Of a DNA stretch of 64,000 bases, positions 5,501 through 50,500 are shown piece by piece. Under the pieces are notes generated by a model. It was not told the DNA's origin, searched no databases, and worked only from the letters and a program-made list of their open reading frames with translations. The position numbers and the translations under genes were made by a program. Origin of the DNA: Felis catus (lineage: Eukaryota); the NCBI RefSeq assembly GCF_018350175.1, contig NC_058368.1:26848001-26912000 (forward strand). The letters are read 5' to 3'. Position 1 is the stretch's first letter, and every line of letters starts with the position of its first letter.

Positions 5501-8500
5501 AAATCAATTAATCACAAACATAAGCAATCTTATTGATAAGAAAACAGTAATTGCAGGTGACTTTAATACTCCACTTACAACAATGGAGAAATCATCTAGG
5601 CAGAAAATCAATAAAGAAACAATGGCCCTGAATGATACACTGGAACAGATGGACTTGACAGATATATTCAGAACTTTTCATCCAAAAGCAACAGAATACA
5701 CATTCTTCTTGAGTGCACATAGGACATTCTCCAAGATAGATCACATACTGGGTCACAAAACAGCCCTCAATAAATACAAAAGAATTGAGATCATACCATG
5801 CATATTTTCAGATCACAAGGCTATGAAACTTGAAATGAACCACAAGAAAAATTTGGAAAGCCTCAAAATGCATGGAGGTTAAAGAACATCCAACTAAAGA
5901 ATGAATGGATCAACCAGGCAATTAAAGAAGAAATTAAAAAATGTATGGAAGAAAATGGAAATGAAAACACAACAGTCCAAACCCTTTGGGATGTAGCAAA
6001 GGCAGTCCTAAGAGGAAAATACATTGCAATCCAGGCCGATCTCAAAAAACAAGAAAAATCCCAAATACAAAACCTAACCTCCACCTAAAGGAACTAGAAG
6101 CAGAGCTGCTAAGAAAACCAAAACTCAGCAGAAGAATAGAAATAATAAAAACTAGAGTAGAAATGAACAATATAGAATCCAAAAAAAAAAAAGAGAACAG
6201 ATCCATAAATCTAAGAGTTGGTTTTTGAAAGAATACGCCAAATTGATAACCCACTAGCCAGACTTCTCAAGAAAAGAGAGAAAACACAAATAGATAAAAT
6301 CACGAATGAAAGAGGAGAGATCACAACACCACAGAAATAAAAATAATTAAGAGAATACTATGAAAAATTATATGTCAAAAACTGGACAACCTGGAAGAAA
6401 TGGACAAATTCCTAGACACCCACACACTACCAAAACTCAGAAAGAAACAGAAAATTTGAACAGATCCATAACCAGTGAAGAATTTGAATTGGTTATCAAA
6501 AATCTCCCAACAAATAAGAGTCCTGGACCAGATGGCTTCCCAGGGGAATTCTATCAGACATTTAAAGCAGAGTTAATAGCTGTTCCAAAAAATAAAAATG
6601 GAAGGAAGCTTCTGTGAGACCCTACAAAAAAGGAGAATTATAGGCCATATCCCTGATGAACATGGATGCAAAAATTCTCAACAAGATACTAGCAAATTGA
6701 ATTCAACAGTATATCAAAAGAATTATTCACCATGATCAAGTGGGATTCATTCCTGGGCTGCAGGGCTGGTTCAATATTCACAAATCATTCAGTGTGATCC
6801 ATCACATTAACAGAAGAAAAGATAAGAAACATGACCCTATCAATAGATGCAGAAAAAGCCTTTGATAAAATACAACATCCTTTCTTAATAAAAACCCTCA
6901 AGAAAGTCAGGATAGAAGGAACATACTTAAACATCAAAGAAGTCATATATGAAAAGCCCACAGCTAGTATTATCCTCAATGGGAAAGACCGAAAGCTTTT
7001 CCGCTGAGATCAGGAACATGACAGGGGTCTCCTTCTCACCACTGTTGTTTAACATAGTGTTGGAAGTCCTAGCCACGGCAAGCAGACAACAAAATGAAAT
7101 AAAAGGCATCCAAACTGGCAAAGGAATCAAACTTTCACTTTTTGCATGATACTCTACATGGAAAACCCAAAAGACTCCATCAAAAGACTCCTAGAAGTGA
7201 TACATGAATTCAGCAAAGTCGCAGGATACAAAATCAATGTACAGAAATCAGTTGCATTTGTATACACCAATAACGAAGCAACAGAAAGAAATAAAGAAAC
7301 TGATCTCATTTACAATTTCACCAAGAACCATAAAATACATAGGAATAAACCTAACCAAAGATGTAAAAGGTCTGTATGCTGAAAACTATAGAAAGCTTAT
7401 GAAGGACTGAAGAAGACACAAAGAAATGGGAAAACATTCCATGCTCTTGGATTGGAAGAATAAACATTGTTAAGATGTCAGTACTACCCAAAGCAATCTA
7501 CCCATTCAATGCAATCCCAATCAGAGTGCACAGAGCTAGAATAAACACCCTAAAATTTGTATGGAACCACAAAAGACCCCAAAGAGCCAAAGTAATGTTG
7601 AAAAAGAAAACCAAAGCGGGAGGCATCACAATCCCGGACTTCAGCCTCTACTACAAAGCTGTAATCATCAAGACAGTATATGGTATTGGCACAAAAACAG
7701 ACACATAGACCAATGGAATAGAATATAGAACCCAGAATTGGACCCACACATGTATGGCCGACTAATCTTTGACAAAGCAGGGAAGAGGATCCAATGGAAA
7801 AAAGACAGTCTCTTTAACAAATAGTGCTGAGAGAACTGGACAGCAACATGCAGAAGAATGAAACTGGACAACTTTCCTACACCATACACAAAAATAGACT
7901 CAAACTGGATGAAAGACCTAAATGTGAAGCAGGAAACCATCAAAACCGTCGAGGAGAAAACAGGCAACAATCTTTGACCTCAGCCACAGCAACTTCTTAA
8001 TCGACACATCTCTGAAGGCAAGGGGAATAAAAGCAAAAATGAACTATTGGGACCTCATCAAGATAAAAGCTTCTGCACAGCAAAGGAAACAATCAACAAG
8101 ACGAAAAGGCAACCAACGGAATGGGAAAAGATGTTTGCAGATGACATACCAGATAAAGGGCTAGTATGCAAAATCTATAAAGAACTTATCAAACTCCACA
8201 CCCAAAAAGCAAATAATCCAGGGAAGAAATGGGCAGAAGACATGAATAGACACTTTTCCAAAGAAGACACCCAGATGGCCAACAAGCACATGAAAAGATG
8301 CTTAATGTCACGCATTATCAGGGAAATACAAATCAAAGCCACACTGAGATACCACCTCACACCTGCCAGAGTGGCTAAAATTAACAAATCAGGAAACAAC
8401 AGATGTTGGCAAGGATGTGGAGAAATGGGAACCCTCTTGCACTGTTGGTGGAAATGCAAACTGGTGCAGCCACTCTGGAAAACAGTGTGGAGGTTCCTCA

Positions 8501-47546: not shown

Positions 47547-50500
47547 AATATAATTTATCGTCAAATTGATTTCCATACAACACCCAGTGCTCATCCCAGC
47601 ATGTACCCTCCTCCATGCCCATCACCTACTTTCCCCTCTCCCCCACCCCCCATCAACCCTCAGTTTGTTCTCAGTCTTTAAGAGTCTCTTATGGTTTGCC
47701 TCCCTCCCTCTCTGTAACTTTTTCTCTTTCCCCTTCCCTTCCCCCATGATCTTCTGTTAATTTCTCAAGATCCACATATGAGTGAAAACATATATCTGTC
47801 TTTCTCTGACTGACTTATTTCACTTAGCATAATACCCTCCAGTTCCATCTATGTTGCTGCAAATGGCAAGATTTCATTCTTTCTCATTGCCAAGTAGTAT
47901 TCCATTGTATATATAAACCATCTTCTTTATCCATCTGTCACTTGATGGACATTTAGGCTCTTTCCATAATTTTGTTATTGTTGAAAATGCTGCTATAAAC
48001 ATTGGGGTACATATGCCCCTATGCATCAGCACTCCTGTGTCCCGTGGATTAATTCCTAATAGTGCTATTGCTGGGTGGTAGGGTAGGTCTATTTTTAACT
48101 TTTTGAGGAACCTCCACACTGTTTTCCAGAGTGGCTGCACCAGTTTGCATTTCCACCAACAGTGCAAGAGGGTTCCCATTTCTCCACATCCTTGCCAACA
48201 TCTGTTGTTTCCTGATTTGTTAATTTTAGCCACTCTGGCAGGTGTGAGGTGGTATCTCAGTGTGGCTTTGATTTGTATTTCCTTGATAATGCGTGACATT
48301 AAGCATCTTTTCATGTGCTTGTTGGCCATCTGGGTGTCTTCTTTGGAAAAGTGTCTATTCATGTCTTCTGCCCATTTCTTCCCTGGATTATTTGCTTTTT
48401 GGGTGTGGAGTTTGATAAGTTCTTTATAGATTTTGCATACTAGCCCTTTATCTGGTATGTCATCTGCAAACATCTTTTCCCATTCCGTTGGTTGCCTTTT
48501 CGTCTTGTTGATTGTTTCCTTTGCTGTGCAGAAGCTTTTTATCTTGATGAGGTCCCAATAGTTCATTTTTGCTTTTATTTCCCTTGCCTTCAGAGATGTG
48601 TCGATTAAGAAGTTGCTGTGGCTGAGGTCAAAGATTGTTGCCTGTTTTCTCCTCGACGGTTTTGATGGTTTCCTGCCTCACATTTAGGTCTTTCATCCAG
48701 TTTGAGTCTATTTTTGTGTATGGTGTAAGAAAGTTGTCCAGTTTCATTCTTCTGCATGTTGCTGTCCAGTTCTCTCAGCACTATTTGCTAAAGAGACTGT
48801 CTTTTTTCCATTGGATCCTCTTCCCTGCTTTGTCAAAGATTAGTCGGCCATACATGTGTGGGTCCAATTCTGGGTTCTATATTCTATTCCATTGGTCTAT
48901 GTGTCTGTTTTTGTGCCAATACCATATACTGTCTTGATGATTACAGCTTTGTAGTAGAGGCTGAAGTCCGGGATTGTGATGCCTCCCGCTTTGGTTTTCT
49001 TTTTCAACATTACTTTGGCTCTTTGGAGTCTTTTGTGGTTCCATACAAATTTTAGGGTGTTTATTCTAGCTCTGTGCACTCTGATTGGGATTGCATTGAA
49101 TGGGTAGATTGCTTTGGGTAGTACTGACATCTTAACAATGTTTATTCTTCCAATCCAAGAGCATGGAATGTTTTCCCATTTCTTTGTGTCTTCTTCAGTC
49201 CTTCATAAGCTTTCTATAGTTTTCAGCATACAGACCTTTTACATCTTTGGTTAGGTTTATTCCTATGTATTTTATGGTTCTTGGTGAAATTGTAAATGAG
49301 ATCAGTTTCTTTATTTCTTTCTGTTGCTTCATTATTGGTGTATACAAATGCAACTGATTTCTGTACATTGATTTTGTATCCTGCGACTTTGCTGAATTCA
49401 TGTATCACTTCTAGGAGTCTTTTGGTGGAGTCTTTTGAGTTTTCCATGTAGAGTATCATGTCATTTGCAAAAAGTGAAGGTTTGACTTCTTCTTTACCAG
49501 TTTTCATGCTTTTTATTTCATTTTGTTGTGTGATTGCTGATGCTAGGACTTCCAACACTATGTTAAACAACAGTGGTTAGAGTGGACATCCCTGTCGTGT
49601 TCCTGATCTCAGGGGAAAAGCTTTCAGTCTTTCCCATTGAGGATAATACTAGCTGTGGGCTTTTCATATATGACTTTTATGATGTTTAAGTGTGTTCCTT
49701 CTATCCCAACTTTCTTGAGGGTTTTTATTAAGAAAGGATGTTGTATTTTATCAAATGCTTTTTCTGCATCTATTGATAGGATCATGTTTCTTATATTTTC
49801 TTCTGTTAATGTGATGGATCACACTGATTGATTTGTGAATGTTGAACCAGCCCTGCAGCCCAGGAATGAATCCCACTTGATCATGGTGAATAATTCTTTT
49901 TATATGCTGTTGAATTCGATTTGCTAGTATCTTGTTGAGAATTTTTGCATCCATGTTCATCAGGGATATTGGCTCATAGTTCTCCTTTTCTGTGGGGTCT
50001 CTGTGTGGTTTAGGAATCACAGTAATTCTGGCTTCATAGAATGAGTCTGGAAGTTTTCCTTCCATTTCTCCTTTTTGGGACAGCTTGAGAATGGTAGGTA
50101 TTAACTCCGCTTTAAATGTCTGGTAGAATTCCCCAGGCAAGCCATCGGGTCCAGGACTCTTATTTGTTGGGAGATTTTTGATAACTGATTCAATTTCTTC
50201 ACTAGTTATGGGTTTGTTAAAATTTTCTATTTCTTCTGGTTTGAGTTTTGGTAGTGTGTGGGTGTTAGGAATTTGTCCATTTCTTCCAGGTTGTCCAGTT
50301 GTTGGCATGTAATTTTTCCTACTATTCTCTTATAATTGCTTGTATTTCTGAGGGATTGGTTGTGATAAATCCATCTTAATTCATGATTTTATCTATTTGG
50401 ATCCTCTCCCTCTCTCTTTTTGAGAAGGCTGGCTAGAGGTTTGTCAATTTTGTTTATTTTTGCAAAATGTCAACTCTTGGTTTCATTGATCTATTCTACT

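What the first reader, a model, noticed from the sequence alone, without database searches (positions are those of the whole stretch)
7181..49424. Sharply bounded ~1.36-kb near-identical tract between two diverged, inverted L1s that bracket LACC1 (likely ectopic gene conversion)
Seen: 7181-8544 (+ L1) is the reverse complement of about 48060-49424 (- L1). By eye I count only about 7 substitutions (~99.5% identity). The tract carries the same disabling lesions in both copies: a deletion giving ...[12 protein letters not shown]..., the stop-containing aaatagtgctgagag, and the gtatatgg insertion. The ORF track shows the same spurious ORFs twice (8175-8501 equals 48103-48429). Just outside the tract identity drops abruptly (accaggaatttacccaaagg vs attaggaattaatccacggg; a deletion at ~7146 in one copy only), and the two 3' UTR ends differ in type. 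Inference: an ORF2-dead tract was probably not copied by independent retrotransposition, so one decayed copy likely overwrote the other by intrachromosomal conversion across 40 kb. The same pairing resolved as a crossover would invert LACC1 plus the promoter and separate CCDC122 from its last exon, so the locus may be prone to inversion polymorphism.
Basis: partly seen in the sequence, partly recalled or inferred. Interest (0 to 1): 0.72.

Follow-up and report, generated by a model that had tools for sequence, protein, structure and literature searches.

The report
Converted tract between inverted cat L1s
Two long-dead L1 jumping-gene copies that face each other 40 kb apart around the cat LACC1 gene share a 1.36-kb stretch that was copied from one onto the other by DNA repair, probably more than once; this is a real and clean example of a known process, and no inversion of the gene is shown.

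Summary
Observation confirmed. 7181-8544 and 49424-48060 differ by 8 transitions and one 1-bp indel in 1364 sites, against 13.2% in the flanks. Eight ORF2-breaking lesions are shared. The window's LACC1 matches the Felis catus protein.

The right L1 has its own target-site duplication and a different 3' end, so the copies inserted separately. Both ends of the right L1 are still paired and CCDC122 is in order, so the net outcome is non-crossover conversion, roughly 1-3 million years old.

(1) An adjacent 382-bp block at 4.5% divergence shares two frameshifts, which points to an older conversion.
(2) An unnamed public protein (P0255) joins tract-specific residues to the left copy's flank, which argues against an assembly artefact and favours the left copy as donor (p about 0.03).

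No reads or other felid assemblies could be examined. This scan has already noted three similar L1-L1 tracts elsewhere in the same genome (unchecked notes). Verdict: a new case of known non-allelic gene conversion between transposon copies.

The parts
2565..9087 (+). Left L1, near full length and decayed (5' UTR, ORF1 remnant, ORF2 remnant 5133-8841, 3' UTR of a different type from the right copy; no poly(A) tail or target-site duplication found). Probable donor.
7181..8544 (+). Young converted tract, left copy (3' end lies between 8523 and 8544)
48060..49424 (-). Young converted tract, right copy (probable acceptor)
6645..7026 (+). Older converted block, left copy: 17 of 382 differences, no indel between copies, two shared frameshifts (ORF2 aa 595 and 647/648)
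49590..49971 (-). Older converted block, right copy
47547..52225 (-). Right L1, 5'-truncated within ORF1, antisense in the last coding intron of CCDC122
52233..52246 (-). 5' copy of the right L1's target-site duplication (exact 14-mer also at 47539-47552; a 13/16 match to 52225-52240 at 47117-47132)
47539..47552 (-). 3' copy of the right L1's target-site duplication (overlaps the L1 terminal A-rich motif)
47133..47507 (-). Short 5'-truncated L1 3' fragment, apparently nested in the right L1's 3' target-site duplication
50767..50996 (-). SINE inserted in the right L1 only, with its own target-site duplication
16596..23666 (-). LACC1 coding exons 23109-23666, 22273-22452, 21368-21535, 18143-18364, 16596-16754; 0 differences from Felis catus P0241 over these pieces
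24001..26000 (.). GC-rich (61%) region between the head-to-head genes, inferred shared promoter
   Evidence: promoter role is inference
34315..56195 (+). CCDC122 coding exons: about 34315, 34870-34986, 44173-44571, 45336-45452 (inside the L1 pair) and 56046-56195 (outside)

Best explanation
Two L1s inserted separately in opposite orientation, about 40 kb apart, and each decayed by about 6-7% (shown in part; the split of the 13% between copies is inferred). A double-strand break or stalled fork in one copy was then repaired using the other as template, with no net crossover, most likely by synthesis-dependent strand annealing within a chromatid or between sisters (mechanism inferred). This copied about 1.36 kb, lesions included. 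It happened roughly 1.3-2.9 million years ago (CI 0.6-5.8). The left copy was probably the donor (about 75%). An earlier event, roughly 10-23 million years ago, left the 382-bp block 155 bp upstream (about 80%), and may have eased the later pairing (speculative). The tract is a neutral repair scar with no evident function.
For: Step from 13.2% to 0.6% divergence. Eight lesions shared inside the tract; outside it and the older block the lesions are private, apart from one ambiguous -1 at aa 420/422. Right copy has its own target-site duplication, still paired at both ends. 3' ends are 12.8% apart and of different type, which reverse transcription from the 3' end cannot give. The residual differences are all transitions and fall on both copies: by the canid ORF2p residue, 4 left-derived plus the indel, 3 right-derived, 1 synonymous. 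P0255, from an unnamed 627-bp ENA contig, carries the tract's rare residues (aa 1085, 1096, 1108, 1117, 1146, 1171) in cis with the left flank's private residues. It is 1.9% diverged (CI 0.8-3.9) against 0.59% between the two copies; conditional binomial p=0.026. P0437, from an unnamed 679-bp ENA contig, is letter-identical to a left-copy ORF that runs through one shared frameshift and ends at a second. Older block: 0 of 5000 permutations as low, 10 non-synonymous to 5 synonymous differences, two shared frameshifts. CCDC122 exons are collinear with an open last exon.
Against: No reads and no second felid assembly were seen. No independent sequence of the right copy was found (0 of the 5 right-copy ORFs looked up). 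P0255 is protein only and covers only 8245-8781; its species is unknown. Five of its seven changes are on its own branch and two are unresolved, so it could be noisier or faster than assumed, and the conversion could then predate the split and leave direction open. At aa 1170 the left copy and P0255 share the rare residue while the right copy has the common one, yet the next codon is rare and shared by all three; a single clean event does not explain this without a back-mutation or a patchy end. The tract is longer, the spacing wider and the starting identity lower than is usual in the reviews read; the longest identical run outside the tract today is 63 bp.
Confidence: 0.85

Rival explanations
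1. Inversion toggling: two crossovers between the L1s (an inversion, later reversed), each with an associated conversion patch, left the older block and the young tract. Lineages that split in between would carry an inverted LACC1 block and a split CCDC122.
For: Two strata of different age side by side; inverted geometry; L1-L1 recombination-mediated inversions are documented, more than half of them over 10 kb (PMC2603318, passages). An even number of flips would also restore the paired target-site duplication.
Against: The CCDC122 last exon is as conserved (82-88%) as the inner exons (65-82%) against P0376 and P0380, which fits continuous use but is weak. It needs two rare events to fix, one of them gene-breaking.
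Confidence: 0.05
2. cDNA-mediated conversion: a transcript of the full-length left L1 was reverse-transcribed in trans and the cDNA overwrote the right copy.
For: The probable donor is the copy that keeps a 5' UTR; the tract lies toward the 3' end.
Against: A cDNA could pair with any of very many L1s, many likely closer in sequence; the acceptor being a neighbour 40 kb away argues for DNA-DNA pairing. The tract stops about 500 bp before the 3' end.
Confidence: 0.04
3. Assembly, consensus or polishing artefact that wrote one copy over the other.
For: No reads were seen; no independent record of the right tract was found; other such tracts were noted in the same assembly, one reported as letter-perfect (unchecked notes).
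Against: Eight of eight differences are transitions, split across both copies. A second stratum sits at 4.5%. Copies 13% apart are not normally merged by assemblers (general knowledge). The left arrangement is present in independent ENA contigs.
Confidence: 0.04
4. Both copies come from a non-autonomous, already broken L1 subfamily, or from an old inverted duplication of one copy.
For: One ambiguous shared -1 at aa 420/422; stretches of lower divergence at 5177-5410 (13 of 234, 40 of 5000 permutations) and 6380-6577 (14 of 197, 1546 of 5000).
Against: Identity is stepped, not uniform; 3' ends differ; separate target-site duplication; only 1 of 120 listed relatives reaches 90% over the tract and it has the left flank, the next being 85%.
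Confidence: 0.02

Closest known systems
Non-allelic gene conversion between transposable-element copies (Alu-Alu, LTR-LTR): Fawcett and Innan 2019, PMC6598467; Doronina et al. 2021, PMC8230782 (passages seen)
   Same: Non-reciprocal overwriting between separately inserted neighbouring copies; old dead copies can be donors; repeated events at one locus are reported (3 Alu loci among 98).
   Different: L1 rather than Alu or LTR; 1.36-kb tract; 40 kb apart where the Alu excess is within about 10 kb; starting identity about 87%, just under the 89-100% optimum quoted there.
Interlocus gene conversion between duplicates: Mansai, Kado and Innan 2011, PMC3924818 (passages seen)
   Same: Identity above 80%; overlapping events in the same direction can build one long apparent tract.
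   Different: Most mean tract estimates there are 50 to several hundred bp and the minimal processing segment is about 200 bp; here the tract is longer and no identical run over 63 bp exists outside it today.
L1 recombination-mediated inversions: Lee et al. 2008, PMC2603318 (passages); L1-flanked inversions in 1,019 humans, bioRxiv 10.1101/2024.04.18.590093 (passages)
   Same: Inverted L1 pair flanking genic sequence at 10-80 kb scale.
   Different: Those are crossovers that leave chimeric elements; here the right element keeps both its own ends and gene order is intact, so only the substrate is present.
Other L1-L1 tracts noted by this scan in the same genome (e1-7855527, e1-7788088, e1-7855247; unchecked notes)
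   Same: Dead L1 pairs 10-33 kb apart sharing 1.5-5 kb near-identical tracts.
   Different: This one brackets a gene and has an older second block and an independent polarising sequence.

Membership tests
[quoted passage not shown] | Bounded tract of much higher identity than its flanks | tested here: met
   0.6% against 13.2%, changepoints at 7181 and 8523
[quoted passage not shown] | Copies inserted independently before the event | tested here: met
   Own target-site duplication on the right copy, different 3' ends, private lesions; no duplication found for the left copy
[quoted passage not shown] | Shared derived post-insertion mutations confined to the tract | tested here: met
   8 shared lesions in the tract, 2 in the older block, 1 ambiguous elsewhere; 7 shared rare residues in 152 tract codons against 1 in 102 codons from 8524 on
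[quoted passage not shown] | Non-reciprocal transfer, with the donor unchanged and the acceptor changed relative to an outgroup | tested here: inconclusive
   Left side supported by P0255; no outgroup sequence of the right locus was found
[quoted passage not shown] | No exchange of flanks (non-crossover) | tested here: met
   Paired target-site duplication and collinear CCDC122 exons; this shows the net outcome only
[quoted passage not shown] | Both copies confirmed in raw reads | not testable with these tools
   No run was listed, so no reads could be laid
L1 recombination-mediated inversion | Inverted homologous L1s flanking the segment | tested here: met
L1 recombination-mediated inversion | Chimeric elements with swapped ends and a reversed segment | tested here: not met
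   Right element keeps both ends; CCDC122 exons all on + in order
L1 recombination-mediated inversion | Opposite orientation in other individuals or species | not testable with these tools
   No genome or reads available
Non-autonomous L1 subfamily | Many genomic copies with the same lesions and uniform identity to the 3' end | tested here: not met
   3' flank 12.8% diverged; 1 of 120 listed relatives at 90% or more. The cat genome itself could not be searched, so copy number is tested only indirectly.

The most novel reading that the evidence does not exclude
Neighbouring dead L1s at only about 87% identity ratchet toward identity: an early short conversion seeds later kilobase-long ones. This builds new near-perfect inverted repeats out of fossils, often enough in cats (four noted on one stretch of this genome) to be an overlooked source of inversion substrates. 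At this locus a LACC1-inverting, CCDC122-truncating allele exists or once existed in felids.
Probability: 0.12. Interest if true: 0.62.

Novelty: new member of a known kind. Interest (0 to 1): 0.3.

Why it matters
As one event it is a neutral repair scar. Its value is as a well-dated example that kilobase conversion works between L1s about 13% diverged and 40 kb apart, and can recur at the same pair. It has left two 1.36-kb arms at 99.4% identity, with identical runs of 200-300 bp, around LACC1 and most of CCDC122. That is a plausible substrate for a 40-kb inversion that short reads would miss, and a place where reads will mis-map. If such tracts prove common in cats, L1 ages from pairwise divergence would be biased locally.

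Tried and rejected
Whole-genome search: no genome is held for this window.

Sequencing runs: one search (6300-9250, DNA, library word PACBIO) listed none. That is no evidence either way, and no reads were laid.

Exact 24-nt lesion motif in metagenome contigs: 0 matches. Related-locus scans gave only distant L1s: 4 loci in genome contigs (61-81%), 1 weak in viral contigs, 12 in metagenome contigs (44-77%); none is an orthologue and none was used.

Exact look-up of ten spurious ORFs: 1 of 10 found (left copy, P0437), 0 of 5 right-copy ORFs.

Subfamily polarisation: the 42784-43404 fragment overlaps the tract by only about 100 bp and did not discriminate by eye. The protein panel is canid-dominated before about aa 700, so the 25 shared rare residues in the endonuclease region are read as lineage markers, not as conversion. 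The right-copy columns were out of frame and are not used.

RT-domain conservation as the cause of the older block: rejected, because the differences are mostly non-synonymous and two frameshifts are shared. The 6380-6577 dip is not significant, and the 5177-5410 dip (40 of 5000) has no shared lesion, so it is left unexplained.

A fold-back RNA from the two L1s: rejected by geometry, since each gene's outward transcript would carry the same antisense strand of one L1 only.

Literature: LACC1+CCDC122+inversion gave 1 paper, a cancer preprint, seen as a listing only. Four searches on L1 conversion or inversion and one on tract length listed no survey of kilobase L1-L1 conversion; the library lacks most subscription journals. 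Felid inversion tables (Bredemeyer et al. 2023, cited in PMC11216403) and all supplements were not seen and may list this locus. A search on CCDC122 function returned nothing relevant.
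Full report
Observation. A self-comparison of the window finds one long inverted L1 pair, 4716-9037 against 52225-47571. 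In the pairwise alignment, 7181-8544 and 49424-48060 differ at 8 of 1364 sites, all transitions, plus a 1-bp A loss in the left copy at about 8065. Background in the rest of the pair, leaving out the second block and 7146-7180, is 332 of 2518 sites (13.2%). Segmentation places the low-divergence tract at 7181-8523 at three penalties. Among the other repeat pairs of 100 bp or more that megablast lists in the window, none exceeds 91%.

Context. The five LACC1 coding pieces on the minus strand show 0 differences from the Felis catus protein P0241 and 3-21 differences from the other 14 feliform proteins listed (15 of 29 cluster members were listed), so this is a domestic cat or a very close Felis. 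The right L1 is antisense in the last coding intron. The left L1 lies about 7.5 kb beyond the LACC1 stop codon.

Separate insertions. The right L1 is 5'-truncated and bounded by an exact 14-mer at 52233-52246 and 47539-47552. A 13/16 match continues beyond a nested L1 fragment at 47117-47132; only one other place in the window matches that 16-mer as well. The 14-mer overlaps the A-rich L1 end, which weakens it a little. No duplication or tail was found for the left copy. The 3' ends are 12.8% apart and differ in type. Since L1 copying starts at the 3' end (established knowledge of target-primed reverse transcription), one copy is not a retrotransposed daughter of the other.

Shared damage. A frameshift-aware comparison with a canid ORF2p (P0226) lists the breaks in each copy. 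Inside the tract eight lesions are shared: frameshifts at aa 748, 792, 888 and 984, a 5-codon deletion at 833-837, and stops at 903, 935 and 937. One is private (aa 1017, left). Outside, lesions are private except two frameshifts at aa 595 and 647/648 and an ambiguous -1 at 420/422 that one shared or two separate deletions explain equally well. The residual tract differences fall on both copies when polarised by the reference residue: four left plus the indel, three right, one synonymous. That is what independent ageing after one copying event gives. With rates of 1.0e-9 per year (my slow bound) and 2.26e-9 (0.86e-8 per generation over 3.8 years, from the abstract start of bioRxiv 10.1101/2021.04.06.438608), the tract dates to 2.9 or 1.3 million years, CI 0.6-5.8.

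An older layer. 6645-7026 differs at 17 of 382 sites with no indel between copies. None of 5000 permutations gave as low a window; the window edges were chosen by eye, which the scan statistic only partly corrects. The strictest segmentation does not separate it, and the looser ones merge it into a 7.0% segment 6380-7180. Its differences are 10 non-synonymous to 5 synonymous, so conservation of the RT domain does not explain it, and it holds the two shared frameshifts. I read it as an earlier conversion, about 10-23 million years old. A third dip at 5177-5410 (13 of 234; 40 of 5000) has no shared lesion and stays unexplained.

Independent sequences. A search with the left ORF2 frame 8068-8781 gave 2100 hits among the 8000 candidates scored; 120 were listed. 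One of the 120, P0255, reaches 90% over the tract; the next are 85%. P0255 comes from an unnamed 627-bp ENA contig, is 95.5% identical to the left copy and 74% to the right. Against 37 panel proteins chosen from 119 by at least 72% identity to the tract, it carries the tract's rare residues at aa 1085, 1096, 1108, 1117, 1146 and 1171, and the left flank's residue at all 18 sites that it covers where left and right differ from aa 1170 on. It has seven changes of its own, and by my reading of its N-terminus a small deletion. Seven changes over about 371 non-synonymous sites is 1.9% (CI 0.8-3.9), more than the 0.59% between the cat copies (p=0.026). The simplest reading is an orthologue from another felid that split before the conversion, in which the left locus already had the tract sequence, so the left copy is the donor. 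Caveats: it is protein only, of unknown species, covers the last fifth of the tract, and five of its seven changes are on its own branch with two unresolved. At aa 1170 the right copy has the common residue while left and P0255 share a rare one, but aa 1171 is rare and shared by all three; this needs a back-mutation, a patchy end or an older event that reached further. Separately, the left ORF 7204-7407, which runs through the shared frameshift at aa 748 and ends at the one at aa 792, exists letter for letter on an unnamed 679-bp ENA contig (P0437; 1 of 10 ORFs looked up). Nothing independent was found for the right copy.

Mechanism. Shown: separate insertion of the right copy, shared lesions in bounded blocks, two-sided ageing, no net exchange of flanks. 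Inferred: homology-directed repair of a break in the right L1 on the left L1, by a loop or sister pairing over 40 kb, resolved without crossover; at least two events. Speculative: the older block eased the later one. A crossover in the tract would swap the inner 3' ends, invert LACC1, the promoter and the first four CCDC122 coding exons found, and cut off the last 49 codons. The assembled allele is not that, though an even number of flips cannot be excluded from one genome. No reads or other genomes were available.

Comparison with what is known. Conversion between transposon copies is established for Alu and LTR elements, is enriched within about 10 kb, favours 89-100% identity, and can hit one locus more than once (PMC6598467, PMC8230782; passages). 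Typical mean tracts are 50 to several hundred bp, and overlapping events can build longer apparent tracts (PMC3924818; passages), so the 1.36 kb may itself be a composite. Inverted L1 pairs cause inversions in apes and humans (PMC2603318; bioRxiv 10.1101/2024.04.18.590093; passages). I also saw passages of PMC11216403, bioRxiv 10.1101/2024.04.06.587788 and PMC8232201; none of those passages mentions this locus. Searches listed no paper on this locus in cats and no survey of kilobase L1-L1 conversion, within a library that lacks most subscription journals; no supplements were read. This scan's own notes record three similar tracts in the same genome among 88 windows with notes; I did not check them.

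Verdict. Real, well supported and of a known kind, at the long, distant, low-identity end of the range. The older second block and the probable direction are the additions here. Interest 0.3. It would rise if a felid comparison showed recurrence or an inverted allele.

Noticed in passing
window 47117-47552: A 370-bp L1 3' fragment appears to have inserted into the 3' target-site duplication of the right L1, with a (TG)17 repeat at the junction; it reads as a 401-bp tandem repeat.
   Followed up: partly
window 9087-9100: The left L1 ends without a poly(A) tail or a recognisable target-site duplication, which suggests a deletion of its 3' end.
   Followed up: partly
window 6578-6642: The left L1 lacks about 60 bp in several adjacent gaps just upstream of the older converted block.
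   Followed up: no
window 5177-5410 against about 51746-51510: A third low-divergence stretch (13 of 234 sites; 40 of 5000 permutations) in the endonuclease region, with no shared lesion.
   Followed up: partly
window 23109-23666 (LACC1 first coding exon): Tiger LACC1 has an 8-residue insertion that looks like a tandem duplication, absent here; tiger, leopard and snow leopard are 437 aa, lion 424, the others 429. The cat has S at residue 11 where 13 of the other 14 listed proteins show G.
   Followed up: no
window 42784-43404: An L1 3' fragment 91% identical to the right L1's 3' part, in inverted orientation 4 kb away, bracketing the CCDC122 exons at 44173 and 45336; identity looks uniform, with no sign of a converted tract.
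   Followed up: partly
window 56716-56839: A 62-bp two-copy tandem repeat with internal 9-bp units just downstream of the CCDC122 stop codon.
   Followed up: no
L001-L004: Short contigs of four bacterial genome records encode mammalian-like L1 ORF2 fragments; three carry coverage below about 1.2 in their names. Probably host contamination.
   Followed up: no
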